A stretch of DNA of 64,000 nucleotides from Candidatus Aenigmatarchaeota archaeon (GCA_016198755.1 JACQIB010000004.1:170913-234912), one strand, 5' to 3'; shown: positions 31,796 to 57,813, counted from the first letter of the stretch. Notes: generated by a model from the letters alone, not told the origin. Translations and numbers: made by a program.

Positions 31796-32249
31796 GGCAC
31801 CCGTCTTACCCAGTCCTTATTCGCCTAGGTTTTTAGCCTAAGCAAAAGCTCGTGCAAAGCACGAGCACTCGAGGTTCCCTTCTCACACGCTAATGCATTG
31901 GAAAGTTTTCGCTCCTGCTGCGACCCGTAGGCCCTGCGCTCATGTCTCAGAGCGCATCTGGAGGCTCACACTCTCATGTCCCCTACCCGTCACAGGCTTG
32001 TCAGTTTTATAAAGCAGGTAGCTTATGCTACCAAAAATTATTTTGGCAAACTAAGTTTGCCTATGCACTTTACACTGACAACAACCTGATAGGCCGCAGT
32101 CCCATTCTATGGCGCCGGAGCTTTCACTTTTGGTGCATTCCAGCATCCAAAAACTATGGGGCATTAGCCTCACTTTTGCGTTCACTTTCAAAAGAAAGTG
32201 GAATTCGCAAGATTATTCCCCACCATAGAGTAGGTTAACTACGTGTTAC

Positions 32250-43710: not shown

Positions 43711-43714
43711 ATAG
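43707..43714 (+). promoter_or_regulatory. TATA-like element (tttaaata) 22 nt upstream of ATG 43736
   Basis: Consistent with a leaderless archaeal transcript. Confidence 0.3.
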
Positions 43715-43735
43715 ATTTCTTTTTACAACCTAATT

Positions 43736-44758
43736 ATGACTTCGATATCAGCTCTGGCTGGCAGTAGGCAAGTAGGTGGGATGCTCGGCAACACTGAAAG
43801 GTTTGTAGTCACGCAAACAGACAGCCAGGAAACCTTTGTAGATAACCATGGTCCATACCAGAAGGATGGGAACGCACTTAAAACAAGGTATTTGGGCAGA
43901 TGCCTTGTAATGGGCACTGGCCAGGGATATCTTATTGAACATGCTACAGATAATTCACACATATTAGAACAGGATACACCAAAAGAGGTTGCAGAAAAAC
44001 TTTTTGAAACGACAAACGGGAGAGAATATGGAACAAAGGGTCTGTCTTTTATAGTTGCCGGGAATGATGGGAAAACCTCAGAAATCTACCATGTACACGC
44101 TTCCCCAAAGAAAAGCAGGAGGGTATCAGGACCAGTTGGTTGGATATTTGACGGGTCTGGGGCAAGGTTAATGAGGCCTGCATTTGAGAGAGATATAAAA
44201 AATGGAGCGCTTAATCTAAATATGGGCACCCTTCAGATGAGCATGGCAGATCTTATCTCATATCAGTGGAATCTTGGGGACAATGCAGCAAATGATATAG
44301 GTGTGAACGATAGGTGGGAAGTTGGATTGGTTACTCCTGATAAAATACGGACTCTTATAAGCCCAACAGTTCCTTTATGGAGCACAGCTCTTGAGGAGTA
44401 TATACAGCTTAATTTAGGTGTGAACGTAACAGATTCGGAAAAGATGGGTCCTTTCTGGGGGGTAATGAACGACCTGCACCATGCGATAGAAATAGGATGC
44501 AGGAGACTGGGTCAGGCAGATTATAGGCTAAATCAAACCTTCGGTAATCAAAAATACAGACCCGCTGGTAATAGGGTAGACGAACTGATTAAAAGCAAGC
44601 TCTCTGAGAGGGATGAAGAACGCAGAAAACTGGGTGTTCTGGTTGATGCATGGTATTCTGGAGAGTTGGAAACTGTTGTAACTGCTCTTGATATGTTTAG
44701 CGATGAAAGGAAAACTATGAGAACGAAGGCAGTGGAAATTGCAAGACAAGCTGCTTAA
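43736..44758 (+). CDS. Proteasome-beta/HslV-like Ntn-hydrolase homolog (Thr2 after Met) with a roughly 150-aa C-terminal extension; paralog of 21750-22832
   Basis: MT-SISALAG; RFVVTQTDSQ; LKTRYLGRCLVMGTGQG; GLSFIVAGNDGKTSEIYHVHASP...VSGPVGWIFDGSGA. This is a strong match to the proteasome beta pattern GLIVAGWD..GPQLY.IDPSG....A.GSGS. Confidence 0.55.
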   Translation: MTSISALAGSRQVGGMLGNTERFVVTQTDSQETFVDNHGPYQKDGNALKTRYLGRCLVMGTGQGYLIEHATDNSHILEQDTPKEVAEKLFETTNGREYGTKGLSFIVAGNDGKTSEIYHVHASPKKSRRVSGPVGWIFDGSGARLMRPAFERDIKNGALNLNMGTLQMSMADLISYQWNLGDNAANDIGVNDRWEVGLVTPDKIRTLISPTVPLWSTALEEYIQLNLGVNVTDSEKMGPFWGVMNDLHHAIEIGCRRLGQADYRLNQTFGNQKYRPAGNRVDELIKSKLSERDEERRKLGVLVDAWYSGELETVVTALDMFSDERKTMRTKAVEIARQAA

Positions 44759-45219
44759 GCCTGTTTAACCTGCTCAGCTAACAAAGGCTTTTTTCCGCCG
44801 AGCAAAACAATTATTTTGTCTGCAAAATCCTTAACTTCACTCTCTCCGGCAGATGTTAGAACTTTCTCACTGTCTTTTGGTATTCCGGCAGAATTTAACA
44901 GGGAAACTGCAGTACCGCTGGCTGCAACAATTTTCCCTGCATCAAAAAAATCCTTTGCCATTTTAACGGCTGCAGGGTTATTTTCCAGTCCTATAAAACC
45001 CGGAGAACAGCCAATAAAAACAACACCATCATACTCGTTTACCCTAACCTCTTCCAGCCTCATGTTAGGTAGATAGCTTTCCCCTTTCAAAGAAACAAGA
45101 GAAGTCTTCTGCGGCCCGCAAACAAGCTGCAGAATACCTGCGGCATCTATAAGCTTGCGCAGCTCAAAGAACTCTGCATCCGGAAACCCGCGCTGGGGGG
45201 TAATTTCTATTATTAGCAT
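44755..45219 (-). CDS. DJ-1/PfpI-family (class I glutamine amidotransferase-like fold) protein
   Basis: 154 aa with a DJ-1-like central beta-sheet pattern (DGVVFIGCSPG...AKDFFDAGKIVAASGTAVSLL). Confidence 0.65.
   Translation of the reverse strand: MLIIEITPQRGFPDAEFFELRKLIDAAGILQLVCGPQKTSLVSLKGESYLPNMRLEEVRVNEYDGVVFIGCSPGFIGLENNPAAVKMAKDFFDAGKIVAASGTAVSLLNSAGIPKDSEKVLTSAGESEVKDFADKIIVLLGGKKPLLAEQVKQA
45127..45187. repeat. Copy 1 of a 61-bp perfect direct repeat (lies inside the 5' end of the DJ-1 gene)
   Basis: ctgcagaatacctgcggcatctataagcttgcgcagctcaaagaactctgcatccggaaac is identical to 48854-48914. Confidence 0.95.
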
Positions 45220-45347
45220 TTACCACATTGGAAAAGAAGGTATAAAAAGGTATAGTTAACACTCATTGCTTTATTTACAATCTACTATATTATGATTGGG
45301 GGGAGAGTGTGAGAACCTTAAATAGTAGCGTCAAAATATTTATAAAT

Positions 45348-48300
45348 ATGTCAAAAAAACTCTCGCCTGCATCTGTTATCGTTGCTGTATTAATTGTTGC
45401 CGTTATTTTCCTGACATTTAGTGGGAATATTGTACTACATGCAGTAACTCCGGGACAGAATGTAACAGTCTGCGACGTGATAAATGCAGCAGGGAACTAC
45501 TATATGAATGCCAGTATAGGAAATAGCGGTTCTTCCACCTGCGTAGATATAACCCAGGGCAATGTGCTCTTGGACTGCAGGGGATTTGCAATAGATGGAA
45601 TCGATACTTCTGGCACAAACGGCATAAGAGCAGCAGCCACCAACAATGTAACAATAACAAACTGCACAGTTTCAGACTGGGGAACAGGAATAGACCTGTT
45701 AGATGTAAAAAACGGGACTGTAACAAATGTTACAGCAAGCTCAAACGGAAACGGTATATATATAGCTACGCTCGGTCCTGGATCACATAGCATTTTGGTT
45801 GAAAATTCTACTCTGAACTCAAATGTGGATGGTGTACATATAGAATCTGCACATAATGTTACAATAGCCAACAGCACTGTTTTTTCTAACACCGGCTATG
45901 GAATATATGATTTTGCAGGCAATAACACAACGATATTCAACAATACCATAAGCTTCTCTGCTCTGGATGGAATAGCCATTTTTGCCAATATAACAAACAT
46001 AACAAACAACACAATAAACTCCAACACAAGATACGGCATAAACATAACTACCACATCAGATACAAACGCTAGCATTATGGGTATGAATTTTATAAAAAAT
46101 AACACAAAAGCCGGCATACGTGCCTATGGATACGGTTACTATATAATTAACAACACTCTGCTATCAAATGGATGGGATGGCATAGAAGCGTATATAAACA
46201 CTAGTGCTGTATTGAACAATACAATAACCTCAAATTTCTACAGCGGAATTTTTCTCAATGCTTCCTATAACACAACAATACAAAACAATACATTGGCCTC
46301 TAATTCACAGGCAGGCCTGAATACCACAGACTCTAGGAACAATACAATAAGGGGAAACATTATAAAATCCAATTCCGCGGGCGGGGTTTTCCTGAACTTC
46401 TCTTCTAACAGCAGCATGGAAGGCAATATGATATTTTCCAATTCGGCGTCAGGCATACAATTTATATTCAACAGCACAAACAACACTGTTGTAAACAATA
46501 CAATACAGCTTAGCGGCCAGAATGGCATTTATATTTTAGGCAATTCCACGAACAACTCTGTGATAAACACACTGTTGCTACAAAACAGTATAGATGCCAT
46601 AAGAATAGAATCTGTTAGCAATTACACAAACATAACAGGCAACTTTATATCAGGCAACAACCGCGGCATTTATATTACAAATACAGGCGGAACAAGGCTG
46701 CATAACAATACTATGAGCTCAGATGGCACCGGAATGTATATACAAAACTCTGGGGGAGTAAACATGACAAACAACAGCATATCCAGTCTGAATGCAAGAT
46801 TTGATGTGAGAGGATCTGTTGTTGCCGATTTTGACAACTGGATAGACACCAGCAATAATATAGATTTCAACCCGATATACTACTGGGTAAGGCAGTATAA
46901 CCAGACAATGGATTCTGCTACAAATGCTGCCTATATAGCTGTGGTAAGCAGCAGCAACATAACTGTCAGAAATATTAACCTAAAAAATAATGCTCAGGGA
47001 ATTGTATTTGTAAATGCTTCAGATTCCATAATAAACAACACTAACACAACGTCCAGCAGCCAGTATGCGATATATATCCACCTCTCAAACAACAATAGTA
47101 TTGGAAATCTGTCTGCCGGTTCTAACAGCTTAGCTGATGGCATCTATATGTCAAACTCGACAAACAACACTATTAAAAATATAACAATAAACAGCAATTC
47201 GCGGGGAATGAATATTTATTATTCAAACAATAACACAATTTATAACAATACATTCAACTCTAACTCAGGCACCGGCGTAGACTTGGAAACTTCACATAAC
47301 AACACTGTATCAAACAACACTATACGTTCGGGTGGCGGCCATGGTATAATACTTGGTGGAGCGAGTAACAATACTGTCTCAAAAAATATTATCAGCCTTG
47401 TTAGAAACAGTGGTATACTTCTGCAGGTCTTCAGCAACGGCAATTATATAATAAACAATACACTTTCGAACAACACGCAGGAAGGGATTTTAATGACACA
47501 ATCCAACAACAATACTGTTAATAACAACACTATATCATCTAATATGCAAAACGGTATATACATAACTGGTGTGAATACTGTCGGACTGAATAGTATCAAC
47601 AACAGCATCAACTATAACACCATATTTTACAATGGTAACAACGGAATTTATGCAGATACTGCCAGTGATAATAACAGTTTTACAAACAGCACGGTCTCCC
47701 ACAATATCCTGAGTGGCATAAACCTTAGCCAGTCCAGTAATAATACTTTCCACAACATAATTCTCTCCAACAACACTCTATGGGACTTCTTTTCTGACAG
47801 CAATTCCATGAATAACAGCGCAACTTCAATGGCAGTTGGCTCGACAACATTAAGCTTTAGTGGAAGAGATATTGGTTTAAAGAACTCCAGCTCACCTGCT
47901 TCATCCCCTAGCGGATATACAGCTCTTGGCAAGTATGTTAATTTGAGCAATGCTACAACTTCCTCATGGTCTATATTGAACTTTTCCTATTCTGACTCTG
48001 ACATATCGGGCCTGACAGAAGGGAGTGCTATAATAGGTAGATATACTGAAAGTGCATGGGGAACTAATGTTTCTGCTTTTTCCTCGGGAGTTACAATAAA
48101 CACTGCAAACAATTACATATATACAAATGTAAGCAACTTCAGCATCTTCGGTGCGTTTGCCCCCACTACTACCACTACTCCGTCTTCCCCGTCATCTACG
48201 AGCAGCGGGGGTGGAGGAGGTGGTGGATACAGCCCTTACGTACCATCTTATGATATAAAAGTGCATGCCAGTGAAACTGTTTTTAAGCTGGAAAAGAACC

Positions 48301-48821
48301 AAAATAAAACAATAACAGTAACTTTGGAAAATAATGGTACAGATAATCTTACAGGCATAATTGTAAGGCTCATTGGGATTAACAATGCAACATATAGGGT
48401 AAATGGGCTGCCTGATTCTCTAAATGTAAATGAAAGTGTTGTCTTCACAATTACATTTACCTCAGCAGAAGAAGCGTACAATGTAAAGAGATTATTTATA
48501 AACACAACGCAGGGTGTGCATACTGAACTGTCCCTTTCAATAACACCTGATGGTGCAACAACAACCCTGCAAAAGCAGTGCTCTGTCTGCCCTGCTGTCG
48601 GGGAATTCGGTATATGTGAAAACTTCAAACAACAACGCACAATATACAAGTGCGGTCCTGATACAGACTATGTTTGCAAAGCAAATATAGAGGAAAGTGC
48701 ATGTATACCACTAACTCCAGAGGAAAGGAAATCTGTTTCTGTTATAGCCATACTATCGATATTCTCTATAGTAATACTATTCAAACTTAAAGTACACGCT
48801 ATAAGTTCCTTTGTAAAATAA
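45348..48821 (+). CDS. Giant surface protein (about 1,157 aa): signal/anchor, many parallel beta-helix (PbH1/NosD-like) repeats, an extremely high density of N-x-S/T sequons, a Cys-rich C-terminal module and a C-terminal TM helix
   Basis: Repeating 22-25-aa units (xNNTIxxNxxxGIxxxxSxN). C-terminal CSVCPAVGEFGICENF...C.C plus SVIAILSIFSIVILFKL. TATA-like ccttaaatag about 27 nt upstream of ATG 45348. The tracked GTG at 45309 is unlikely to be the start. Confidence 0.75.
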   Translation: MSKKLSPASVIVAVLIVAVIFLTFSGNIVLHAVTPGQNVTVCDVINAAGNYYMNASIGNSGSSTCVDITQGNVLLDCRGFAIDGIDTSGTNGIRAAATNNVTITNCTVSDWGTGIDLLDVKNGTVTNVTASSNGNGIYIATLGPGSHSILVENSTLNSNVDGVHIESAHNVTIANSTVFSNTGYGIYDFAGNNTTIFNNTISFSALDGIAIFANITNITNNTINSNTRYGINITTTSDTNASIMGMNFIKNNTKAGIRAYGYGYYIINNTLLSNGWDGIEAYINTSAVLNNTITSNFYSGIFLNASYNTTIQNNTLASNSQAGLNTTDSRNNTIRGNIIKSNSAGGVFLNFSSNSSMEGNMIFSNSASGIQFIFNSTNNTVVNNTIQLSGQNGIYILGNSTNNSVINTLLLQNSIDAIRIESVSNYTNITGNFISGNNRGIYITNTGGTRLHNNTMSSDGTGMYIQNSGGVNMTNNSISSLNARFDVRGSVVADFDNWIDTSNNIDFNPIYYWVRQYNQTMDSATNAAYIAVVSSSNITVRNINLKNNAQGIVFVNASDSIINNTNTTSSSQYAIYIHLSNNNSIGNLSAGSNSLADGIYMSNSTNNTIKNITINSNSRGMNIYYSNNNTIYNNTFNSNSGTGVDLETSHNNTVSNNTIRSGGGHGIILGGASNNTVSKNIISLVRNSGILLQVFSNGNYIINNTLSNNTQEGILMTQSNNNTVNNNTISSNMQNGIYITGVNTVGLNSINNSINYNTIFYNGNNGIYADTASDNNSFTNSTVSHNILSGINLSQSSNNTFHNIILSNNTLWDFFSDSNSMNNSATSMAVGSTTLSFSGRDIGLKNSSSPASSPSGYTALGKYVNLSNATTSSWSILNFSYSDSDISGLTEGSAIIGRYTESAWGTNVSAFSSGVTINTANNYIYTNVSNFSIFGAFAPTTTTTPSSPSSTSSGGGGGGGYSPYVPSYDIKVHASETVFKLEKNQNKTITVTLENNGTDNLTGIIVRLIGINNATYRVNGLPDSLNVNESVVFTITFTSAEEAYNVKRLFINTTQGVHTELSLSITPDGATTTLQKQCSVCPAVGEFGICENFKQQRTIYKCGPDTDYVCKANIEESACIPLTPEERKSVSVIAILSIFSIVILFKLKVHAISSFVK

Positions 48822-48853
48822 TGCTAAAATAACAATCAAAGAATGATATAATA

Positions 48854-48914
48854 CTGCAGAATACCTGCGGCATCTATAAGCTTGCGCAGCTCAAAGAACT
48901 CTGCATCCGGAAAC
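48854..48914. repeat. Copy 2 of the 61-bp perfect direct repeat
   Basis: Exact duplicate of 45127-45187, located between the beta-helix protein gene and the LmbE-like gene. Confidence 0.95.
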
Positions 48915-48953
48915 AAAAGAGTATTTATATGCAGGTTTTGTATAAGTGTATTC

Positions 48954-50144
48954 ATGCCAGAGAAATACCATGTAAAACTGCTTATACTTGCATTGTCTAT
49001 ATCCATAGCAATTAATCTAGTCAGTGCTTCACATTGGATTTATATTACTAGTGCAGAAATACTAGCTGGCCCCCCAAACTCCACGCTAGATGTTGAACAT
49101 ATAGTAGACAATAACTTCCATTTGGATTATAGCAATAGCACATGCGTAAACACGCATTTTTATATTGTTGCTCACATAGACGATGACTTCACTTTTTTGA
49201 ACCCAGATGAAGCAATAGATTTACAGAAAACAAATGACAATATAGTAATAATGTACCTGACTGCAGGGGACAAGGGAAGCGTATACCCAGACCCTGCAAC
49301 AAGCAAGTTTTTTTGGCAGTCAAGGGAACTGGGAGGCCAGAAGGTAATTGAAACTCTTTTAACTGAAGCAAATAAGTCATGGACAAAAATAAATGTCACA
49401 AGTATTATAGATGTGGGGGGGGCAAACAAAACATTATACAACATAAGATACACATCTGGGAAGAGGAATATCTATGTATACTACTTCAGGCTTCCTGATG
49501 GTTTCCCAAATGGATGCGGCAGGATAAACAACGGGTTCAATTCATTGCAAAAGTTGTATATAGGTGGTAACAATTCTATAGATAGATGCAGCTCAACTGG
49601 AACATATAGCATAAATACAGTAAAATCCTGCGACCCGGAAAGACCAAATGAATACTGCACAACGTGGAAAAAAGAGGAACTTACAACAGCAATAACCAGC
49701 ATACTTAACTATAATTCAGCTCCTCAAGCATGCGATAATATAGTAAATATTCCACATCCATTTGAAGATGAATGCTGGGCCCCTAATAATAAGCCTTATG
49801 CACATGCTGACCATGAATATACAGGCAAATTTGCATTCGATGCCTACAATAACTTTTACAAAAACCATAATAACACTCACTATGCTGCCTATAGAACTGA
49901 CACACTTGCATTCGTGCAACGCAATGTCACTAAACGGCAGAGGGATGCTGATTACTTGCTGTTTTGGAATGTTTATGCACCAGAAGTGCTTAAAAACTGG
50001 CCAAAATATGTGGATGATGAGGAGTATAAGAGCAGCGGCAGGATTTTTGAAACCTTCTACCTAAAGCAATGGAAAGCTGTTGATACTGTTTCATGCAATG
50101 CTCTACCATATCCCAATCTGGAAAATAACCCAGTATCAAAATAA
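48954..50144 (+). CDS. Membrane-anchored PIG-L/LmbE-family N-acetylglucosaminyl deacetylase-like protein
   Basis: IVAHIDDDF (the AHPDDE-like metal-binding motif) and HADHEY (the HxDH-like motif); N-terminal TM anchor KLLILALSISIAINLVSA. The tracked TTG at 48882 lies inside the direct repeat and is probably spurious. Confidence 0.55.
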   Translation: MPEKYHVKLLILALSISIAINLVSASHWIYITSAEILAGPPNSTLDVEHIVDNNFHLDYSNSTCVNTHFYIVAHIDDDFTFLNPDEAIDLQKTNDNIVIMYLTAGDKGSVYPDPATSKFFWQSRELGGQKVIETLLTEANKSWTKINVTSIIDVGGANKTLYNIRYTSGKRNIYVYYFRLPDGFPNGCGRINNGFNSLQKLYIGGNNSIDRCSSTGTYSINTVKSCDPERPNEYCTTWKKEELTTAITSILNYNSAPQACDNIVNIPHPFEDECWAPNNKPYAHADHEYTGKFAFDAYNNFYKNHNNTHYAAYRTDTLAFVQRNVTKRQRDADYLLFWNVYAPEVLKNWPKYVDDEEYKSSGRIFETFYLKQWKAVDTVSCNALPYPNLENNPVSK

Positions 50145-50213
50145 CAAAAGATATCCATGGAAGTTATAACTATAATACTTTGGTTTTTATACTTAATGCA
50201 TAAAGCTTCTCTT

Positions 50214-51212
50214 ATGATTGAAATTGATGGAAATGATGCTGGAGGGCAGCTTGTCAGAACCGCTGTTTCTCTGAGCGCCATAACAGGAAAGGCTTTTAGG
50301 ATTGTTAACATACGCGGGGCGCGACCCCAGCCTGGACTGAAAGCACAGCATATGGAAGGTATTGGAACTGTGGCAGAACTCTGTTCTGCAAAAGTTTCGG
50401 GGTTGGAGTTAGGCTCAAAAGAGCTGGAATTTATTCCTGGAAAGCTGGAACCAAAAAATTTGGAGGTTAAAATCTCTACAGCAGGTTCAATTGGATTAGT
50501 TTTGCAGTCTCTGTTAATTGATGCAACAAAGTTTGAAAAGCCTATTAATGTTAAGTTTTCAGGCGGTGGAACATGGGGAAAGTGGGCCCCACCCATGCTT
50601 TATCTGGAAAAGGTTTTTCTGCCCTGCTTATGTTCAGGTTTAAAAACAAAAGTTAAGAGAGAAGGTTTCTATCCTCGTGGTGGGGCAGAAGTAGAGGTTG
50701 AAATAACTCCAATTAAAGTAAAATCTATAGAGATTCTGGAGCATGGAAAGCTGCTGGAACTGAATATTTTCTCTGTTGCTGCCCAATTGGAAGGGAAAAA
50801 AGTAGCTGAGAGGCAGGCTGAGGCTGCGCGCAGTTTCCTAGAGGAGAGGATTGGGGTAAAGGTTTCTGTGAAAACAACCTATTCTGCAGCAGAAAATCCT
50901 GGCTCTGGTATTTTGATTGTTGGGAAGTGTGAAAATTCAGTGATTGGAGCTGACTCTATTGGAGAGCTAAATGTTCCAGCAGAGGAGGTTGGAAAGAGAG
51001 CTGGAAAGGATTTTTTTAATGAGTTTGCAAACGGGGCTGTAGACAGGCACTGCGCTGACATGCTTTTGCCCTATATTGCTCTGGCTGGAAAGGGAAGAAT
51101 AAAAACATCAGAGATAACCCAGCATATTGTTACCAGCATAGAACTAATAGAAAAGTTTCTGCCTGTAAAGTTTTCGATAGACAGGGAAAAGAAGATTATT
51201 TCTGTGCTATGA
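50214..51212 (+). CDS. rtcA: RNA 3'-terminal phosphate cyclase
   Basis: N-terminus MIEIDGNDAGGQLVRTAVSLSAITGKAFRI is the typical RtcA start. The conserved His-containing adenylylation region is consistent with RtcA (...GSGILIVGKCENSVIGADSIGE...DRHCADML). Confidence 0.8.
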   Translation: MIEIDGNDAGGQLVRTAVSLSAITGKAFRIVNIRGARPQPGLKAQHMEGIGTVAELCSAKVSGLELGSKELEFIPGKLEPKNLEVKISTAGSIGLVLQSLLIDATKFEKPINVKFSGGGTWGKWAPPMLYLEKVFLPCLCSGLKTKVKREGFYPRGGAEVEVEITPIKVKSIEILEHGKLLELNIFSVAAQLEGKKVAERQAEAARSFLEERIGVKVSVKTTYSAAENPGSGILIVGKCENSVIGADSIGELNVPAEEVGKRAGKDFFNEFANGAVDRHCADMLLPYIALAGKGRIKTSEITQHIVTSIELIEKFLPVKFSIDREKKIISVL

Positions 51213-51240
51213 AAGCTATTTAAAGTTTTCTTACTGTTTA

Positions 51241-52218
51241 TTGAACATGGAACTGTCAAGAGAATTCCAAAGACCTGCAACTGTAAAACATTTTATAGGG
51301 AAGGACGATATAACAGGCTTACAGGATGCAGTGAGAGGGAGATATGTTGGCATAACGCCTCCTCTCGGTAAACCTAAAACCGGAGCTTTTGCAATGGGAA
51401 GGTTAACAGGAAGAATTAATTCTTGGGAAGGAAATGTGGATTTAGGGCTTACTGATGGCTATCAAATTAGATGGAAAGATGGTAAGTACATTATTGAATC
51501 TCTTGCATCTGGTGTAAAAGTACCTGAAACTTCTATTCTGTATACAGATAGCACGCTTTACAGGCAGAATACTGCCCGCTTTTTGAGGGGATATGCTATT
51601 GGGAGAAGGTTTAACGAACAAATGGAAAGGGAAGAATTTGGCTGGACTTCAGAAAAAAAGAGAGTGGTTTTCCTTGGAGGAGTACATGGAGTTGGAAAAG
51701 GGACAGCACTCTCTAAAGCAGATACAAAAGGTCTGGTAGTTAAAGGGTTCAGCGATGTAATGAAAGGGCTAATTGCTGGTGAAAGTAAAGATTCACTTAA
51801 CAAAAAAAGCTATGAAGAAAGGAGAATAATGGTTGAAGGTGTATACAATATTTTGCTGGATATAGGATCTCCGGGTGTTATTATTGACAGCCACTTTACA
51901 ATGCCTATTAGAGATCCGCAGGGAATTGGAGTTGAAAGATGGGAGGTTGGACTGCCTGCACGCTATATACCGTATGTAACAGATTTTGTTGTGGTTACAG
52001 CTGATGAATCTCAGGTTTATTCCAGAAGGGCTGGAGATCCAGCTGGCAGGAGAATAACAACAAGACATTTAATTTCTGAGGAACTTGCAAACGAACTAAG
52101 CGGCGGAAGAGCAGCTGCAGGCCTTTCAGGCAGGTCACTGGTTGTTGTGGACAATAATCAAACTCCGGAAGAAGCCGGAGCACAGCTAACTGAAATATTT
52201 GCCTCTGCAGCAGACTAA
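51241..52218 (+). CDS. P-loop NTPase/kinase-like protein (Walker A GGVHGVGKGT) with a roughly 130-aa N-terminal domain
   Basis: Walker A VVFLGGVHGVGKGTALSK; Walker B-like VIIDSHF; 325 aa. Confidence 0.5.
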   Translation: MNMELSREFQRPATVKHFIGKDDITGLQDAVRGRYVGITPPLGKPKTGAFAMGRLTGRINSWEGNVDLGLTDGYQIRWKDGKYIIESLASGVKVPETSILYTDSTLYRQNTARFLRGYAIGRRFNEQMEREEFGWTSEKKRVVFLGGVHGVGKGTALSKADTKGLVVKGFSDVMKGLIAGESKDSLNKKSYEERRIMVEGVYNILLDIGSPGVIIDSHFTMPIRDPQGIGVERWEVGLPARYIPYVTDFVVVTADESQVYSRRAGDPAGRRITTRHLISEELANELSGGRAAAGLSGRSLVVVDNNQTPEEAGAQLTEIFASAAD

Positions 52219-52243
52219 GTTTGGTTTATTTTAGAAAATAGTT

Positions 52244-52427
52244 TGGTGCGGGAGGCAAGATTTTCAGCCCTTTTGGGGTTTGCAAAGACCTTTTCGGAAA
52301 AGGGATTTGCTTTGAACTTGCGTAGGGACTAACCCACTAGGTTTCTCATGCAGGTCTCTGAGCAACGCCTGCTCCTAAGCTTCGCTTAAATCATCTAGCG
52401 CCTTTGACCTGGCTGGGCCACTCCCGC
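52244..52427 (-). tRNA. Type II tRNA (Leu; anticodon TAG or GAG depending on intron parse) with at least two introns: one or two in the anticodon arm (about 44 nt total) and about 48 nt in the T-loop; CCA encoded
   Basis: Acceptor GCGGGAG/CTCCCGC with A73 plus CCA. D-arm TGGCCCAGCCAGGTCAAAGGCG is Leu-like. Long variable arm GGGTTAGTCCC. T-arm GCAAG-TTCAAAG[intron]-CTTGC. A CTTAGGA anticodon-loop-like heptamer is present in the interrupted anticodon region. Confidence 0.65.
52268..52317. repeat. 50-nt sequence identical to 24904-24953 (shared tRNA T-loop intron core)
   Basis: Exact match. Confidence 0.9.
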
Positions 52428-53156: not shown

Positions 53157-53927
53157 TCAAATGCTATCTGTAAGATTCTTTATTGTTTCAGCCTTGTCGA
53201 GGAAGCCAATTGAAGGAGAGCCTTTTTGCAGGGCGCGTAATAAAGTTGCCCGCAAAAGCGAATCAAGCGTACCAGAATCTGACCAGAACCCGTCAACTTT
53301 TATTGCTTTCAGCCTTCCCTGTTTTAGGTACCAGTTGTTCACATCAGTTATTTCCAGCTCGCCCCTGCCAGAAGGCTTAAGTGTTTTTATAAAATCAAAA
53401 ACATCTGCCGGGTAAATATACAGACCTGTTACAGCAAAGTTGGATTTTGGTTGGGCAGGCTTTTCCTCTATTTTTAGAATGTTTCCTGAAGAATCAAACA
53501 CAGGTACACCAAAGCGTTGGGGTTTTTTCATCTCTTTCAGGAAGATATAGGCATTGTCATCTGTAAACGCCTCTGGAGGTATGGAAACCCACTCGAAAAT
53601 ATTGTCCCCAAGAATTGTAATAATCTTCCCATTGTTGGAAAAGTTTTCTGTCTGCAGCAGGGCATGGGCTATTCCAAGAGCTCCATCCTGTATCTTGTAT
53701 GTCAGGTTAACTCCGAGATCTGAACCGCTCCCCAAAAACCTCATAAAATCTGCCATATACTCCCCGCCCGTTATAATACAAATATCATTTGCCCCAATAC
53801 TTTTCAGAGTTTCCAGCGGATGTATTATCATTGGGCGATCGAAAACTGGCAGTAAGTGTTTGTTAGTGACCAGTGTTAATGGTCTGAGCCTCGTTCCTTC
53901 ACCGCCTGCTAAAATAACTCCTTTCAT
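53157..53927 (-). CDS. rmlA: Sugar-phosphate nucleotidyltransferase (glucose-1-phosphate thymidylyltransferase-like)
   Basis: N-terminal MKGVILAGGEGTRLRPLT signature. Confidence 0.8.
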   Translation of the reverse strand: MKGVILAGGEGTRLRPLTLVTNKHLLPVFDRPMIIHPLETLKSIGANDICIITGGEYMADFMRFLGSGSDLGVNLTYKIQDGALGIAHALLQTENFSNNGKIITILGDNIFEWVSIPPEAFTDDNAYIFLKEMKKPQRFGVPVFDSSGNILKIEEKPAQPKSNFAVTGLYIYPADVFDFIKTLKPSGRGELEITDVNNWYLKQGRLKAIKVDGFWSDSGTLDSLLRATLLRALQKGSPSIGFLDKAETIKNLTDSI

Positions 53928-54000
53928 ACTATCACCAAAATCATAACATGATCTTATGATATTGTAATGTTTAAATACCTAACGGACCACTGTTCTAGAT

Positions 54001-54894
54001 ATGGAAAAATTGCTGGTTATAGGAGCCGGCGGGCTTTTGGGAGGCAGGGCGTTTGAGCTGGGAAAAGGTAGGTTTGAGGTTTTTGGGACGTATAATTTCC
54101 ATCCTGTAAAGGGGGAAAAAATGTTTCAGATGGATGTCACAAAAAGGCAGGAGGTTTTCAGAATTATTGAGAAAATAAAACCCAATATTATAATAGATAC
54201 ACACGCACTCCATCCTGTAGACTACTGTGAAACACATCCTGAAGAAACTTGGAATATTACAGTAAATGGAACAAAGAATGTTGCGGAAGCCAGTAAAAGA
54301 GTTGGAGCTAAATATGTATTTTTTTCTACTGATTATGTTTTTGACGGAAAAAGGCTTTCATATACAGAAAAAGACAAACCAAATCCCCTGAACTATTATG
54401 GAAAGACAAAATGGGCTGCTGAAATGGTTCTGGAAGCGCTGGGAGTGAATCATATTGTTGCCCGTGCAGCCGTTCTGTATGGCATGGGAGGACATGGAAA
54501 AGTGAGCTTTGTTTCTTGGGTAATTGAAGCACTGAGGAAAGGAGAGAAGATTAATATCGTTACAGATCAACATAACAACCCGACATTTGCTGACAACCTG
54601 ATTCAGATAGTGTTCAAGCTTTACGAGAAGGATTCTGAAGGACTGTTCCATATTACAGGTAAGGAGTGTTTGAGCAGATATGATTTTGCAAAACACATTG
54701 CAAAGGTGTTCGGACTGAACAGCAAGCTTATAGTACCCATAACCACACCGGATTTGGGTCAGATATCAACTAGGCCTGAAAAAATAAATATATCAACTAA
54801 AAAGGTTGAGAGAATATCTGGTATAAAAACGATGGGAATAGATGAGGGATTAAAAACATTAAAAATGCAACTGGAGGAGAATAAAAGTGATTGA
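54001..54894 (+). CDS. rmlD: dTDP-4-dehydrorhamnose reductase
   Basis: GAGGLLG Rossmann motif; FSTDYVFDG signature of RmlD. Confidence 0.8.
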   Translation: MEKLLVIGAGGLLGGRAFELGKGRFEVFGTYNFHPVKGEKMFQMDVTKRQEVFRIIEKIKPNIIIDTHALHPVDYCETHPEETWNITVNGTKNVAEASKRVGAKYVFFSTDYVFDGKRLSYTEKDKPNPLNYYGKTKWAAEMVLEALGVNHIVARAAVLYGMGGHGKVSFVSWVIEALRKGEKINIVTDQHNNPTFADNLIQIVFKLYEKDSEGLFHITGKECLSRYDFAKHIAKVFGLNSKLIVPITTPDLGQISTRPEKINISTKKVERISGIKTMGIDEGLKTLKMQLEENKSD

Positions 54895-55333
54895 TATAGA
54901 AAGGAAAGCACCTTTGGCTTCAGTGGAAATTATTATAGAAAAAGATGGAAAAATAGTTTTGATAAAAAGAGAGGGGCCACCATTTAAAGGGAAGTGGAAA
55001 CTGCCTGGGGGTATGGTAGAGTATGGGCAGACTGTGGAACAGGCCGCTGTACTTGAAGCAAAAGAAGAAACAAACTTGGATGTGGAACTGCTGGATATTT
55101 TAGGAGTATATTCCAACCCACAGAGGGATCCGCGCTTCCATTCTTTAGCTACGGTTTTTGTTGCAAAGCCCCTGAACGGAGAGTTGAAAGGTGATATTGT
55201 AGAGACAACTGATGCCAAATGGATCGATATAAAGTATCTAACAACAGATGATATGGGATTTGATCATGGAAAAATATTGGAAGATTTCAAAAAATGGCTT
55301 AGTGGAAAAAAAACATTTTGGACGGGGAGATAA
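54887..55333 (+). CDS. NUDIX hydrolase
   Basis: Nudix box GGMVEYGQTVEQAAVLEAKEETNL. Confidence 0.8.
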   Translation: MIDIERKAPLASVEIIIEKDGKIVLIKREGPPFKGKWKLPGGMVEYGQTVEQAAVLEAKEETNLDVELLDILGVYSNPQRDPRFHSLATVFVAKPLNGELKGDIVETTDAKWIDIKYLTTDDMGFDHGKILEDFKKWLSGKKTFWTGR

Positions 55334-55861
55334 ATGGAAACCGGAATTGAAGGACTGACAATAACGCTGAATAAAGTTGTAAATGACTGGCGTGGTTCAC
55401 TTTATGAACTGCTTCCGGGTGGATCTGGAAATCAATCAGTTTCCGATGGCATAGGCAACCTATATGTTTCTGTTGGGAAGAAAAAATTTGTATGCAGAGT
55501 AGGGCATTATCATAAGAATAATACAGAGAATTTCTTTACACTTGGAGGTGCTACTCTCTGGATTTTTTGCGATATGAGAAAGGGATCGAAAACAGAGGGA
55601 ACGGTTTTCGGTGGAATTTTCGGAGATGAATTCCAAAGTAAAACTTCCTTGCAGGTTATGACTATAGATAAGGGTACACTGGCAAAAGTGCGCGTTCCCA
55701 CGGGAGTTTGGCATGCATATTGGCCTATCACAGAAAAACCATCAATTATTATAGCTGTTGGATCTATCCCATACGAAAAGGAAGATAATGAAAAAGTTGA
55801 ATATTCTGACATTGATGATGTTGTCAAAATACTGAAAACTGAGGGTGTAATAGATGAATAA
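55334..55861 (+). CDS. RmlC-like cupin (dTDP-4-dehydrorhamnose 3,5-epimerase-like)
   Basis: Cupin beta-barrel pattern with His residues in HYHKNNTENFFTLGG...GVWHAY. Position between rmlD and rmlB. Confidence 0.6.
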   Translation: METGIEGLTITLNKVVNDWRGSLYELLPGGSGNQSVSDGIGNLYVSVGKKKFVCRVGHYHKNNTENFFTLGGATLWIFCDMRKGSKTEGTVFGGIFGDEFQSKTSLQVMTIDKGTLAKVRVPTGVWHAYWPITEKPSIIIAVGSIPYEKEDNEKVEYSDIDDVVKILKTEGVIDE

Positions 55862-56819
55862 AAAACTTCTGATAACAGGGGGGGCAGGTTTCATAGGAAG
55901 CAATTTTGTACACTACATACTCCAAAATCATCCTGACTATGATATTATTGTGCTGGATAAGCTGACTTACGCAGGCAACCTGAATAATCTGAAAGCTGTC
56001 ACAGACAAAATAAAATTTATCCGCGGGGATATATGCAACACTAAGGATGTTGAGATGGCAATGGAAGGTGTGGATTTTGTTGTTTCATTCGCAGCTGAGA
56101 CTCATGTAGACAGGAGTATATCTGGAGCAAAGGAGTTTGTAATGACAGAAGTTTTCGGGGCCAACACTCTCTTGGAAGTTGTGAATAGATTTGGGACAAA
56201 GAAGTTTGTTTTGGTTTCTACTGATGAGGTTTATGGGGAGATTGAAAAGGGCTCTTTTAATGAAACTGATCCTCTCCATCCAAGAAACCCTTATGCCGCC
56301 ACAAAAGCTGGGGCTGACCTGCTTGCGCTATCCTTCTTCGAAACTTATGGTCTTCCTGTTATGATAACGCGAACCACAAACAACTTCGGTCCTTACCAGC
56401 ATCCTGAAAAATTTATTCCGCGCGCCCTTACTTCTGTGATGTCTGGAAAACCAATACAAATATATGGGGATGGGAAGCAAATAAGAGACTGGATTTTTGT
56501 AAAGGACAATTGTGCAGCTATAGACACGGTTTTGCAGAAGGGTAATGTGGGGGAAGTTTATAATATCTGCGCAAAGAACGAGAAAACAAACATAGAGATT
56601 GCCACAAAGGTTTTGCAGCTTTTGGGAAAGCCTGTGGATTCTTTAAAGTTTGTGCCTGACAGGCCCGGACATGATAAACGATATTCTCTGGACCCATCCA
56701 AAATACATGCCCTAGGCTGGACATGTAAAGAGACTTTCGACTCTGGAATGAAAAATACTGTAGATTGGTATAAAGAAAATGAATGGTGGTGGAAGCCTCT
56801 TATTGAAAATATGGGCTGA
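55854..56819 (+). CDS. rmlB: dTDP-glucose 4,6-dehydratase
   Basis: TGGAGFIGSNF; catalytic YxxxK (YAATKAGAD); SDR-extended family. Confidence 0.9.
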   Translation: MNKKLLITGGAGFIGSNFVHYILQNHPDYDIIVLDKLTYAGNLNNLKAVTDKIKFIRGDICNTKDVEMAMEGVDFVVSFAAETHVDRSISGAKEFVMTEVFGANTLLEVVNRFGTKKFVLVSTDEVYGEIEKGSFNETDPLHPRNPYAATKAGADLLALSFFETYGLPVMITRTTNNFGPYQHPEKFIPRALTSVMSGKPIQIYGDGKQIRDWIFVKDNCAAIDTVLQKGNVGEVYNICAKNEKTNIEIATKVLQLLGKPVDSLKFVPDRPGHDKRYSLDPSKIHALGWTCKETFDSGMKNTVDWYKENEWWWKPLIENMG

Positions 56820-56852
56820 GGGTACGGTAAACTTATAAGCGTTCCACCATTT

Positions 56853-57812
56853 ATGAGTTGCATGAAAAATCCAAAAACCAGCATTATAATACTTAACTGG
56901 AACACGGCTGTAGATACTATAGAATGTTTGGAATCTTTGAAAAAACAGACTGAGAAGGATTTTGAGATTATATTGGTGGATAATGCCTCTGCACCTTCTG
57001 ATATCGAGAAGTTAAAATTTTATTGTGAAAAAGAGAGGCAAATGGGAATACAACTTCTATTTAACAAGGAAAACATGGGTTTTGCTGGTGGGAGTAATGC
57101 TGGCCTTAAACTTGCACGAGGGGAAATAATTATTTCTCTGAACAATGATACTGTTGTGACAGAAGATTGGCTGGAAAATCTTCTTATCCCGTTCAAAGAT
57201 CAGTCTGTGGGGGCTTCTGGATCCAAAGCTATTTACTTTTATGAAAGGGATAAAAAAATTGTACAATTTTCCGGGGGTAGGGTAACATTCTATGGTGCAG
57301 CAGTATGCGATGGTCAGGGAAAACCTGATGATAATATACCTTCTGATACGGTGGAATCGCAGTGGCTGATGGGAGCTGCATTTGCATTCAGGAGGACTAT
57401 AATAGAAAAAATGGGCGAGTGGTTTTGTGAGTATTTCTTTGCATATTATGATGAAGTTGATATCTGCTGGAGGATAAGATCTATGGGATATAGGGTAGTA
57501 TATTGCCCGAAATCCACACTTTACCATAAGGGTTCTGCCTCAGTTAAAATAAATAAATTCTCTTACATGCAGCAAAAACTTTCTTTTAGGAACAAATACC
57601 TGACTTTCTGGAGAAATTTGCCTGTGTATAAATTCTTGGTTGTTTTGCCTTTCCTTTGCTCATATGACCTGCTCAGGTGTATAAAATATTCTGTTAGGGG
57701 CGAATTTTATTTTGCTAAATCGTATCTAGAAGGCATGATTGGTTTTGTTCTATCCTTGAATAAAGTGCACAGAATGCGCCTTGGTAAACTGTCCGACCTA
57801 TCATTAAAATAA
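56853..57812 (+). CDS. GT2-family glycosyltransferase
   Basis: IIILNWNTAVDT...LVDNAS...NNDT...DxD-containing GT-A motifs. Confidence 0.8.
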   Translation: MSCMKNPKTSIIILNWNTAVDTIECLESLKKQTEKDFEIILVDNASAPSDIEKLKFYCEKERQMGIQLLFNKENMGFAGGSNAGLKLARGEIIISLNNDTVVTEDWLENLLIPFKDQSVGASGSKAIYFYERDKKIVQFSGGRVTFYGAAVCDGQGKPDDNIPSDTVESQWLMGAAFAFRRTIIEKMGEWFCEYFFAYYDEVDICWRIRSMGYRVVYCPKSTLYHKGSASVKINKFSYMQQKLSFRNKYLTFWRNLPVYKFLVVLPFLCSYDLLRCIKYSVRGEFYFAKSYLEGMIGFVLSLNKVHRMRLGKLSDLSLK

Positions 57813-57813
57813 A

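What the first reader, a model, noticed from the sequence alone, without database searches (positions are those of the whole stretch)
45127..48914. 61-bp perfect direct repeats bracket a 3.7-kb cassette encoding a giant, sequon-saturated parallel-beta-helix surface protein
The 61-mer ctgcagaatacctgcggcatctataagcttgcgcagctcaaagaactctgcatccggaaac occurs at 45127-45187, where it encodes residues about 11-31 of the DJ-1-like protein. It occurs again at 48854-48914, non-coding and immediately upstream of the LmbE-like gene. Everything between is the single 45348-48821 gene plus its promoter. The protein has about 1,157 aa and many PbH1-type repeats, NxS/T sequons at very high density, and a C-terminal Cys module plus TM helix. 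Perfect identity implies a recent event. It may be site-specific or homology-driven insertion of a surface-protein cassette at the 5' end of a gene, duplicating the target as integrative elements do, or a scar of segmental duplication. No integrase or transposase is present, so the mechanism is unknown.
Basis: seen in the sequence. Interest (0 to 1): 0.7.

Follow-up and report, generated by a model that had tools for sequence, protein, structure and literature searches.

The report
Duplication scar beside a newly gained gene
The perfect 61-bp repeat is real, but it does not mark a mobile surface-protein cassette: it is the leading edge of a 1.3-kb insertion that gave this DPANN archaeon an extra sugar-deacetylase-like gene next to a surface-protein gene that has long been at this position, which is an ordinary scar of gene gain.

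Summary
Observation confirmed. The 61-mer occurs exactly twice (45127-45187 and 48854-48914), is 100% identical with sharp borders, and is the longest exact repeat in the window.

The cassette interpretation is not supported. In three related Aenigmarchaeota species the same 1,160-aa beta-helix gene (67-69% aa identity, collinear) lies between the DJ-1 gene and rtcA. It is followed directly by rtcA after a 45-57 bp spacer. None of them has a second 61-mer or a PIG-L gene.

What is new in this lineage is a ~1,324-bp insertion (48854-50177). It consists of 61-mer copy 2, a TATA-type promoter and an orphan PIG-L/LmbE-like gene, and it is flanked by a 9-bp direct repeat, TATAATACT (chance about 1e-4). 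Copy 1 is the native, conserved coding sequence of DJ-1 (codons 11-31), so copy 2 is the daughter.

Independent k=31 assemblies of three sequencing runs reproduce the 61-mer/PIG-L/rtcA junctions at 100% identity. Each breaks exactly 30 nt inside the repeat, as expected for a true two-copy repeat.

I found no integrase, transposase, terminal inverted repeats or attC-like hairpin.

Best reading: a scar of illegitimate, microhomology-mediated recombination (templated filler, or a tandem duplication mostly replaced) that accompanied the gain of the gene. Interest is low.

The parts
44755..45219 (-). DJ-1/PfpI-family gene (154 aa), native and syntenic
   Evidence: Pfam PF01965 2.8e-14. Orthologues at 71-86% aa identity sit in the same position in L001, L003 and L005. 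NCBI accession MBI4015720.1.
45127..45187 (-). 61-mer copy 1 (parent copy): DJ-1 codons 11(3rd base)-31, encoding FPDAEFFELRKLIDAAGILQ
   Evidence: Exact match. It is in frame in DJ-1 and the peptide is conserved in L001. Nucleotide identity to relatives is 82-93%, similar to the rest of the gene.
45188..45347 (.). First 10 DJ-1 codons plus the divergent DJ-1 / beta-helix promoter region
   Evidence: Aligns with L005, L006, L007 and L001, apart from a window-specific stretch of about 50 nt.
45348..48821 (+). Resident parallel-beta-helix (PbH1/NosD-like) surface glycoprotein gene, 1,157 aa. It has an N-terminal signal anchor, 77 sequons, a C-terminal Cys module and a TM anchor.
   Evidence: Pfam and NCBIfam hits. 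Sequon enrichment. Collinear orthologues at 69% and 67% aa identity in the same position in L005 and L001, and also in L009.
48822..48853 (+). 3' spacer of the beta-helix gene (ancestral side of the insertion). It contains the left TATAATA of the 9-bp flanking repeat (48847-48855).
   Evidence: Homology with L004/L005 runs to about 48833-48835. 9-mer positions.
48854..48914 (+). 61-mer copy 2 (daughter copy). It is non-coding and forms the first 61 bp of the lineage-specific insertion.
   Evidence: Exact match. Absent from the beta-helix/rtcA spacer of all relatives. Its last 30 nt are reproduced at the start of three independent Logan contigs.
48915..48953 (+). Promoter region of the PIG-L gene. 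It has a TATA-like TTTATAT at 48924-48930, centred about 27 nt before the ATG.
   Evidence: Read from the sequence. The promoter role is inferred from archaeal promoter geometry.
48954..50144 (+). Orphan PIG-L/LmbE-family deacetylase-like gene (396 aa) with a signal anchor, an AHIDDD motif and an HADH motif
   Evidence: Pfam PF02585 at 9.4e-6, 26.6 bits, just under the 28.2 cut-off. Motifs found. tblastn 1e-16 to actinobacterial PIG-L genes. NCBI names it a PIG-L family deacetylase, MBI4015722.1. No homologue above 34% identity. Absent from relatives' loci.
50145..50179 (+). Right end of the insertion, including the right copy of the 9-bp direct repeat TATAATACT (50171-50179). Homology to relatives resumes at 50178 (CTTTGG...).
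   Evidence: The null probability of a flanking repeat of 9 nt or more is about 1e-4.
50214..51212 (+). rtcA (RNA 3'-terminal phosphate cyclase). In relatives it is the direct downstream neighbour of the beta-helix gene.
   Evidence: Pfam RTC 2.1e-66. 82-86% aa identity to relatives. Synteny.

Best explanation
The second 61-mer is a non-functional scar of the illegitimate recombination event that added a PIG-L/LmbE-like gene to this genome. It is not the edge of a mobile surface-protein cassette.

The ancestral order, kept in three related species, is P-type ATPase, DJ-1 (minus strand), beta-helix surface protein (plus strand), rtcA, then an AAA_17 kinase-like gene. In the window's lineage a segment of about 1,324 bp (48854-50177) was placed in the roughly 68-bp spacer between the beta-helix gene and rtcA. 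It begins with an exact copy of 61 nt taken from the DJ-1 coding region 3.7 kb upstream. It continues with a promoter and the orphan PIG-L gene, and it is flanked by the 9-bp direct repeat TATAATACT.

Most likely mechanism (inferred): microhomology-mediated break repair or replication template switching. The nascent end in the spacer (...TATAATACT) switched to the nearby DJ-1 segment through the 2-nt microhomology CT. It copied 59-61 nt, switched to the DNA carrying the PIG-L gene, and returned through the 9-nt microhomology.

A near-equivalent two-step variant is a 3,727-bp tandem duplication (junction TATAATA|CTGCAG). Its second copy was then almost entirely replaced by the new gene, leaving only its first 61 and last 7-9 nt.

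No dedicated recombinase is involved. Perfect identity means the event is recent.

Consequences (inferred): copy 2 now lies in the 3' untranslated or read-through region of the beta-helix transcript. The two 61-bp direct repeats are also a possible substrate for homologous deletion of the beta-helix gene.

Shown: the repeat, its polarity (copy 1 is the parent), the ancestral synteny, the extent of the insertion, the 9-bp flanks, and independent support for the right-hand junctions. Inferred: the molecular mechanism and the source of the PIG-L gene.
For: - The repeat is exact and present in only two copies.
- Copy 1 encodes conserved DJ-1 residues and diverges from relatives like the rest of the gene.
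- Relatives of three species have the beta-helix gene directly followed by rtcA, with no PIG-L gene and no second 61-mer. L005 and L001 carry the full ATPase, DJ-1, beta-helix, rtcA, AAA_17 order.
- The beta-helix proteins are collinear orthologues at 67-69% aa identity.
- Homology to relatives stops at about 48835 and resumes at 50178.
- The 9-nt TATAATACT sits at 48847-48855, overlapping the first 2 nt of copy 2, and at 50171-50179. The null probability is about 1e-4. This ties copy 2 and the PIG-L gene to one insertion.
- The PIG-L protein has no homologue above 34% identity among 5.8 billion clusters, including the relatives' MAGs. Its GC3 is host-like.
- There is no recombinase domain nearby, no hairpin in the 61-mer (z = -0.64), no terminal inverted repeats by inspection, and no viral or plasmid counterpart.
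- Logan k=31 contigs from SRR12113424, SRR12113420 and SRR12113383 are 100% identical to 48885-52288, 48885-51918 and 48885-51549. All start exactly k-1 = 30 nt inside copy 2 and run unbroken through the PIG-L/rtcA junction (k=31 per PMC12424806).
Against: - The left junction (beta-helix 3' end joined to copy 2) has no independent confirmation.
- The k=31 graph is also compatible with a chromosome lacking the beta-helix gene plus a 3.7-kb circle.
- The source of the PIG-L gene is unknown, so the middle junction (61-mer|AAAAGAG) cannot be checked for microhomology.
- Template switching and templated filler have not been demonstrated in DPANN archaea, as far as I know.
- The PIG-L insertion could be older than the 61-nt duplication. 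In that case only 7 of the 9 flanking nucleotides would predate it.
- Only one genome carries the arrangement, so selection or function of copy 2 cannot be assessed.
Confidence: 0.62

Rival explanations
1. The DJ-1 N-terminus, promoter and beta-helix segment is a cassette that integrated at the 5' end of DJ-1. Integration would be site-specific (att = 61-mer) or by homology-anchored displacement (HFIR-like). It would duplicate the target and push the old DJ-1 5' end and the PIG-L gene downstream.
For: Direct repeats bracket the segment. On the minus strand at copy 2 there is an in-frame ATG, giving MNTLIQNLHINTLL + FPDAEFFELRKLIDAAGILQ. It could be a displaced alternative DJ-1 5' end. Displacement of this kind is proposed for T6SS and Rhs loci (PMC5361080).
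Against: The beta-helix gene and the native DJ-1 N-terminus sit in the same place in three related species, without a second repeat and without the PIG-L gene. There is no integrase. This model needs two illegitimate events whose breakpoints lie 9 nt apart. By my estimate from base composition, an in-frame start before a stop is expected by chance in about 20-40% of cases. The Logan contigs show no beta-helix-to-rtcA 'donor' junction at comparable abundance.
Confidence: 0.07
2. Two unrelated events. The PIG-L gene was inserted earlier, at some time since the split from the sister species at about 85% nt identity. Much later a 61-nt ectopic patch from DJ-1 was copied into the spacer upstream of it.
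For: The 100% identity dates only the 61-nt copy. PIG-L has host-like GC3, which fits a long residence. TATAATA is a low-complexity, promoter-like word that occurs several times in the window.
Against: The 9-nt flanking repeat includes the first two bases of copy 2 and has a null probability of about 1e-4. This places the left edge of copy 2 exactly at the insertion boundary. Two independent events would have to hit the same nucleotide.
Confidence: 0.15
3. Assembly or population artefact. The chromosome is really DJ-1, 61-mer, PIG-L, rtcA plus a separate circle or variant carrying the beta-helix gene. Alternatively the contig is a chimera of strain haplotypes resolved wrongly through a collapsed repeat.
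For: A 61-nt repeat is collapsed in small-k graphs. The Logan contigs break at it, so the order across it rests on the MAG assembler alone. A related scaffold (L003) does carry a chimeric-looking join inside the equivalent segment.
Against: De Bruijn assemblers cannot invent the junction between the beta-helix 3' end and the 61-mer without reads. The right-hand junctions are reproduced at 100% in three runs, and those contigs do not break where a beta-helix-to-rtcA path would merge. The insertion falls cleanly in a spacer and leaves every gene and promoter intact. The alternative would leave DJ-1 without its conserved N-terminus and put a large envelope gene on a 3.7-kb circle that encodes nothing else, so no evident replication function.
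Confidence: 0.05
4. Copy 2 is kept for a function. One option is a 61-nt antisense element in the beta-helix mRNA 3' region that pairs with codons 11-31 of the DJ-1 mRNA. The other is a designed recombination substrate for on/off switching of the surface protein.
For: No T-run lies between the beta-helix stop codon and copy 2, so read-through transcription of copy 2 is plausible. Copy 2 is in the orientation antisense to DJ-1. Deletion between the repeats would leave DJ-1 in frame with an alternative start.
Against: Only one genome carries it, so there is no conservation signal. Relatives manage without it. Perfect identity is explained by recency alone. The 61-mer has no structure.
Confidence: 0.05

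Closest known systems
Illegitimate or microhomology-mediated insertion of foreign DNA, with or without a homologous anchor (HFIR; de Vries & Wackernagel 2002; Meier & Wackernagel 2003, as cited in PMC5361080). Also templated 'filler' from template switching (MMBIR/FoSTeS-type events, from my own knowledge).
   Same: The gene is gained in an intergenic spacer without any recombinase. Short microhomologies or direct repeats sit at the junctions (2 nt and 9 nt). A short stretch copied from a nearby template lies at one junction. The borders are sharp and the flanking genes are intact.
   Different: These mechanisms were established in transformable bacteria and in eukaryotes, not in DPANN archaea. 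The donor molecule is unknown here. A 61-nt templated patch plus a 9-nt flank is longer than most reported microhomologies.
Integrative elements and genomic islands with att-site duplication (archaeal SSV- and pNOB8-type elements, bacterial tyrosine-recombinase islands)
   Same: A perfect direct repeat overlaps the end of a gene and brackets a few kilobases of DNA.
   Different: There is no integrase. The bracketed DNA is ancestral and syntenic in relatives. The repeat is absent from the relatives' right-hand junction. The gene end carried between the repeats is the native one.
Displacement arrays at Rhs/CDI/T6SS effector loci (Kirchberger et al. 2017, PMC5361080; Jackson et al. 2009)
   Same: A short duplicated piece of a conserved gene end lies next to a gene that differs between lineages. 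The proposed mechanism is anchor plus illegitimate join.
   Different: Here the duplicated piece lies on the opposite strand to the new gene and belongs to an unrelated housekeeping-type gene. There is no array and no polymorphic toxin logic. Synteny shows addition downstream rather than displacement.
IS or transposon insertion with a 9-bp target-site duplication
   Same: A 9-bp direct repeat flanks a discrete 1.3-kb insert.
   Different: There are no terminal inverted repeats, no transposase, and only a single copy in the window. One end of the insert is host coding sequence.
Archaeal PbH1/NosD-type parallel-beta-helix surface (adhesin- or S-layer-like) glycoproteins
   Same: Many Beta_helix/NosD repeats, an N-terminal signal anchor, a C-terminal TM anchor, a high sequon density, and a neighbouring dTDP-sugar gene cluster.
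   Different: Glycosylation and a surface-layer role are untested. This protein is the resident neighbour, not the thing that moved.

Membership tests
Integrative element (att-flanked island) | Integrase or recombinase encoded in or next to the element | tested here: not met
   The only genes between the repeats are the DJ-1 5' end and the beta-helix gene. Pfam scans of neighbouring ORFs from about 38.5 to 59 kb show no recombinase.
Integrative element (att-flanked island) | Direct repeats (attL/attR) flank the element | tested here: met
   61-bp perfect direct repeats at 45127 and 48854.
Integrative element (att-flanked island) | Related genomes show an empty site lacking the bracketed DNA | tested here: not met
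   All relatives carry the bracketed beta-helix gene at the same place. What they lack is copy 2 and the PIG-L gene.
IS / transposon | Target-site duplication flanking the insert | tested here: met
   TATAATACT at 48847-48855 and 50171-50179, null probability about 1e-4.
IS / transposon | Terminal inverted repeats and a transposase (or multiple copies of a non-autonomous unit) | tested here: not met
   The insert ends GCAGAATACC... and ...GGAAGTTATAAC are not inverted repeats. The only ORF is the PIG-L gene. No other copy exists in the window.
Integron gene cassette | attC site: imperfect palindrome that folds as a hairpin, with R''/R' core sites | tested here: not met
   As single-stranded DNA the 61-mer folds at -6.9 kcal/mol, z = -0.64 against shuffles. 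No RYYYAAC/GTTRRRY pair is seen by inspection.
Microhomology-mediated illegitimate insertion with templated filler | Insertion absent from close relatives, with precise junctions in otherwise collinear DNA | tested here: met
   Homology to L004, L005, L001 and L009 stops at about 48835 and resumes at 50178.
Microhomology-mediated illegitimate insertion with templated filler | Filler copied from a nearby template, with microhomology at the junctions | tested here: inconclusive
   The template lies 3.7 kb away on the same strand and is 100% identical. There are 2 nt (CT) and 9 nt of junctional identity. The 61-mer/PIG-L junction cannot be assessed because the donor is unknown.
Parallel beta-helix (PbH1/NosD-like) repeat protein | Repeated right-handed beta-helix units detected by curated profiles | tested here: met
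   PF13229 1.6e-70 (7 stretches) and PF05048 1.4e-57. TIGR03804 at 147 bits against a cut-off of 19.45, 9 stretches.
N-glycosylated archaeal surface protein | Actual N-glycosylation and surface location | not testable with these tools
   Indirect evidence only: 77 sequons against 42.9 +/- 5.4 expected, terminal hydrophobic anchors, and adjacent Rml-type sugar genes.
PIG-L / LmbE deacetylase family | Match to PF02585 above the curated threshold | tested here: inconclusive
   26.6 bits against a cut-off of 28.2, E = 9.4e-6. No NCBIfam hit. No PDB sequence hit. tblastn 1e-16 to actinobacterial genes annotated PIG-L. NCBI names it PIG-L.
PIG-L / LmbE deacetylase family | Zinc-binding motifs H-x-D-D near the N-terminus of the domain and a later H-x-x-H | tested here: met
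   AHIDDD at residues 73-78 and HADH at 284-287. The motif definition is from my own knowledge of the family.
DJ-1/PfpI | Match to PF01965 above the threshold | tested here: met
   53.7 bits against 26.6.

The most novel reading that the evidence does not exclude
The insertion accidentally created a genetic switch. RadA-mediated recombination between the two 61-bp direct repeats would pop out the 3.7-kb segment as a circle. That would delete the giant glycoprotein gene and at the same time give DJ-1 an in-frame alternative N-terminus (MNTLIQNLHINTLL...). The result would be surface-protein on/off heterogeneity in an episymbiotic DPANN population. Alternatively, copy 2 in the beta-helix 3' UTR acts as a 61-nt perfect antisense regulator that couples DJ-1 expression to that of the surface protein.
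Probability: 0.05. Interest if true: 0.55.

Novelty: new member of a known kind. Interest (0 to 1): 0.2.

Why it matters
The result corrects an attractive but wrong reading. The large sequon-rich surface protein is a stable, vertically inherited resident of this locus, not a mobile or phase-variable cassette.

What remains is a well-resolved example of how a genome-reduced DPANN archaeon gains a gene without any mobile-element machinery. The junctions are preserved at nucleotide resolution: a 61-nt templated patch and a 9-nt flanking repeat. Such fresh scars are rarely caught and could help in studying illegitimate recombination in uncultivated archaea.

The new gene is a secreted sugar-deacetylase-like enzyme. 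It sits beside a heavily glycosylatable envelope protein and a dTDP-sugar gene cluster, which may point to envelope-glycan remodelling. None of this is surprising to a specialist.

Tried and rejected
Not found. The relatives show the reverse.
- **Genome-contig scans.** Two scans, with the DJ-1 protein and then with an alignment, found nothing. The single metagenome scan gave one short locus.
- **Exact look-ups.** The window's DJ-1, beta-helix and PIG-L proteins are not on record. Only the 351-aa rtcA ORF gave independent contigs.
- **61-mer as part of a repeat family or a viral/mobile sequence.** There is no third copy in the window with up to 3 mismatches, none in the relatives' loci outside DJ-1, and none in IMG/VR.
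- **attC-like or other structure in the 61-mer.** Rejected.
- **Paralogue or remnant of the duplicated segment inside the insertion.** None beyond the 61-mer.
- **Foreign composition of the PIG-L gene.** GC and GC3 are host-like. There is no phage counterpart, and plasmids give only distant actinobacterial PIG-L hits at 25-30% identity.
- **L003's break inside the 61-mer equivalent as evidence for a recombination hot spot.** L005, the same strain at 99.9% identity, reads straight through. L003's end is 60% GC, begins after a 19-nt shared word, and truncates both genes. I therefore treat it as a probable chimeric join and keep the coincidence as unexplained.
- **In-frame alternative DJ-1 start at copy 2.** I considered it as support for the displacement model. 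By my estimate from base composition, a start before a stop is expected by chance in about 20-40% of cases, so it carries little weight.
- **General tendency to short ectopic duplications.** None. Apart from the 61-mer and a 50-nt tRNA-associated repeat, the longest exact repeat is 18 nt.

Full report
**1. The observation**

The 61-mer CTGCAGAATACCTGCGGCATCTATAAGCTTGCGCAGCTCAAAGAACTCTGCATCCGGAAAC occurs at 45127-45187 and 48854-48914 on the + strand with no mismatch. No third copy appears even when three mismatches are allowed, and no shuffle reaches two matches. It is the longest exact repeat in the window. The bases on either side of the two copies are unrelated, so the borders are sharp.

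Copy 1 is the third base of codon 11 through codon 31 of a minus-strand DJ-1/PfpI gene (44755-45219; Pfam PF01965). Copy 2 is non-coding and ends 39 bp before the ATG (48954) of a PIG-L/LmbE-like gene.

Between the copies lie the first ten DJ-1 codons, the divergent promoter region and one gene, 45348-48821. That gene encodes 1,157 aa with Beta_helix (1.6e-70), NosD (1.4e-57) and TIGR03804 repeats. It has 77 N-x-S/T sequons against 42.9 +/- 5.4 in shuffles. It also has a C-terminal Cys-rich module and a TM helix.

**2. Source**

The DJ-1, PIG-L and rtcA proteins are identical to MBI4015720.1, MBI4015722.1 and MBI4015723.1. These come from a 'Candidatus Aenigmarchaeota archaeon' MAG, on a contig of 242,759 bp.

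**3. Relatives decide the polarity**

Contigs were recovered from three related species through DJ-1 and rtcA homologues:

- **Species with rtcA 86% identical.** L005 is a 15-kb MEGAHIT contig. L006 and L007, and L004 (which is the same contig as L008), belong to the same species.
- **Species with rtcA 82% identical.** L001 and L002, from GCA_053536735.1.
- **Species with rtcA 81% identical.** L009, L010 and L011, from GCA_053529795.1.

L005 and L001 carry the whole neighbourhood in the same order: P-type ATPase, DJ-1, a beta-helix protein of 1,162-1,167 aa, rtcA, and an AAA_17 gene. The beta-helix proteins align end to end with the window's protein at 69% and 67% identity, including the Cys module and the anchor. 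The DJ-1 N-terminus that lies between the repeats is the native one: MLIIEITPQRG in the window and MLLVEIAPQRG in L001.

In every relative the beta-helix stop codon is followed after 45-57 bp by the rtcA start. There is no PIG-L gene and no second 61-mer. At 70-72% rtcA identity the synteny upstream of rtcA is lost. The arrangement is therefore a feature of this clade, and within the clade it is ancestral.

The 'cassette' between the repeats is therefore a resident. The novelty in the window is the stretch that the relatives lack.

**4. Anatomy of the insertion**

Homology to the relatives runs to about 48835 and resumes at 50178 (CTTTGGTTTTTATAC..., the rtcA promoter). The extra DNA has these parts:

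- 61-mer copy 2
- 39 bp with a TATA-like TTTATAT centred about 27 nt before the ATG
- the 396-aa PIG-L-like gene
- 33 bp of trailing sequence

The 9-mer TATAATACT occurs at 48847-48855, where its last two bases are the first two of copy 2. It occurs again at 50171-50179, where its last two bases are the first two of the resumed homology. A flanking identity of 9 nt or more arises in about 1 in 10,000 random position pairs. This ties the left edge of copy 2 to the right edge of the PIG-L segment. The simplest reading is that copy 2 and the PIG-L gene arrived as one insertion of about 1,324 bp.

Copy 1 encodes conserved residues and differs from the relatives to the same degree as the rest of DJ-1. 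It is therefore the parent and copy 2 the daughter.

**5. The inserted gene**

The Pfam PIG-L hit falls just under threshold (26.6 against 28.2 bits). The family's metal-binding motifs are present: AHIDDD and HADH. tblastn finds actinobacterial PIG-L genes at 1e-16, and NCBI names the protein PIG-L.

The protein has a signal anchor and eight sequons. No protein above 34% identity exists among 5.8 billion clusters, and that database includes proteins from the relatives' MAGs. Its GC3 is host-like. There is no viral or phage counterpart, and plasmid matches are only distant actinobacterial PIG-L genes at 25-30% identity. Its source is unknown.

**6. Is it an assembly artefact?**

Logan contigs are built per sequencing run with k = 31, with every 31-mer distinct within a run (PMC12424806). 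Contigs from SRR12113424, SRR12113420 and SRR12113383 are 100% identical to window 48885-52288, 48885-51918 and 48885-51549.

All three start exactly 30 nt (k-1) inside the right end of copy 2. That is what a genuine two-context repeat produces in such a graph. All three also run unbroken through the PIG-L/rtcA junction. No beta-helix-to-rtcA path of comparable abundance therefore merges there.

The junctions 61-mer|PIG-L and PIG-L|rtcA are thus real in several samples. The beta-helix 3' end must continue into something other than rtcA, which is what the MAG shows.

The left junction itself is not independently confirmed. The graph cannot exclude a chromosome without the beta-helix gene plus a 3.7-kb circle. 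That alternative would strip DJ-1 of its conserved N-terminus, and I rate it unlikely.

**7. Mechanism**

- No integrase or transposase domain lies in the larger ORFs scanned between about 38.5 and 59 kb.
- The insert has no terminal inverted repeats.
- The 61-mer has no hairpin (z = -0.64).

I therefore favour illegitimate, microhomology-mediated recombination. In the one-step version, a nascent or broken end in the spacer (...TATAATACT) primes on the DJ-1 segment 3.7 kb away through CT. It copies 59-61 nt, switches to the DNA carrying the PIG-L gene, and returns through the 9-nt identity.

In the two-step version, a 3,727-bp tandem duplication (junction TATAATA|CTGCAG, 2-nt microhomology) is followed by replacement of nearly all of the second copy by the new gene. 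This leaves the first 61 and the last 7-9 nt of that copy. Both versions explain all junction features, and I cannot separate them.

Anchor-plus-illegitimate-join integration is documented in transformable bacteria and has been invoked for gene displacement arrays (PMC5361080). Templated filler is known to me from MMBIR/FoSTeS-type events. Neither has been shown in DPANN archaea, as far as I know.

**8. Rival readings**

It gains a little from an in-frame minus-strand ORF at copy 2, MNTLIQNLHINTLL-FPDAEFFELRKLIDAAGILQ-YYIIL*. By my estimate such a start before a stop is expected by chance in 20-40% of cases. The model also needs two illegitimate events with breakpoints 9 nt apart, and it contradicts the synteny.
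- **Two independent events** (PIG-L earlier, 61-mer later). This remains possible but must explain the 9-nt flank.
- **A functional role for copy 2** (antisense to DJ-1 within the beta-helix 3' region, or a substrate for pop-out). This is possible in principle. No T-run separates the stop codon from copy 2. No conservation supports it.

**9. Verdict**

The cassette interpretation is not supported. The 'recent duplication scar, no dedicated enzyme' reading survives, but it attaches to a different unit: the gain of a PIG-L-like gene downstream of a resident surface-protein gene. This is an ordinary although unusually well-preserved trace of gene gain. Interest is low, and the novelty class is a new member of a known kind.

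Noticed in passing
window 24904-24953 and 52268-52317 (also L003 6250-6300): A second perfect repeat of 50 nt. It is also 100% identical in the sister species, whose flanking DNA is only about 85% identical. It lies inside two minus-strand tRNA genes that ARAGORN misses. By eye both read ...T-stem-UUCAAA[~53-nt insert]AU-T-stem-acceptor-ACCA. One is tRNA-Ala(UGC) at about 25004-24873, where the Rfam tRNA hit 24936-24998 stops at the T-loop. It looks like an identical non-canonical T-loop intron in two different tRNAs, which would suggest intron transposition.
   Followed up: partly
L003 1-335, L006/L007 position 1, L005 6294-6328 (equivalent to window ~45145-45176): In the sister species the 61-mer equivalent shows a cluster of oddities. 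Scaffold L003 is identical to L005 for 3.2 kb. It then has 3 mismatches in 34 nt and continues into unrelated 60%-GC DNA carrying a truncated glutaredoxin-like ORF. Contigs L006 and L007 start at that same point. One nucleotide, the first base of DJ-1 codon 17, is tri-allelic (V/L/F) among otherwise 99.9-100% identical assemblies. This is probably a chimeric join through a 19-nt shared word. That it falls inside this 61-nt segment is roughly a 1-in-150 coincidence.
   Followed up: partly
window 43711-44758: A 340-aa ORF with no Pfam or NCBIfam match lies between the ATPase and DJ-1 genes. It is absent from the sister species, where the two genes overlap tail to tail. In L001 the slot holds a nucleotidyltransferase gene plus a small gene (a toxin-antitoxin-like pair). 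So both sides of the DJ-1/beta-helix pair are slots for lineage-specific genes.
   Followed up: partly
window 48838-48955 (minus strand): A 39-codon ORF, MNTLIQNLHINTLLFPDAEFFELRKLIDAAGILQYYIIL*, reads copy 2 in the DJ-1 frame. Its ATG overlaps the PIG-L ATG on the other strand (CATG). Deletion between the repeats would fuse this start in frame to DJ-1.
   Followed up: partly
window ~45296-45343: The DJ-1/beta-helix intergenic region contains a stretch of about 50 nt (TGGGGGGAGAGTGTGAGAACC...AAATATTTATA) that is absent from L005, L006, L007 and L001. It lies just upstream of the beta-helix ATG, so the promoter or 5' leader of the surface-protein gene differs in this lineage.
   Followed up: no
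window 53157-59046: A cluster of dTDP-sugar genes: RmlA-like NTP_transferase, RmlD, NUDIX, RmlC-like, RmlB-like dehydratase and a C-methyltransferase. It lies a few kb downstream of the sequon-rich surface protein and is syntenic in L001 and L009. This fits an envelope-glycan neighbourhood into which the PIG-L-like gene was added.
   Followed up: no
window 30689-32314 (minus strand): The archaeal 16S rRNA gene spans 1,626 nt against a 1,478-position model, and a local GC peak (0.51) stands out from the roughly 0.40 background. The extra ~150 nt may be an insertion or intron of the kind I recall being reported in DPANN rRNA genes.
   Followed up: no
window 378-880 (within ORF 252-2453, minus strand): Three copies of a 77-nt unit at 207-219-nt spacing (66-84% identity) lie inside a 733-aa ORF. 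This indicates an internally repeated protein.
   Followed up: no
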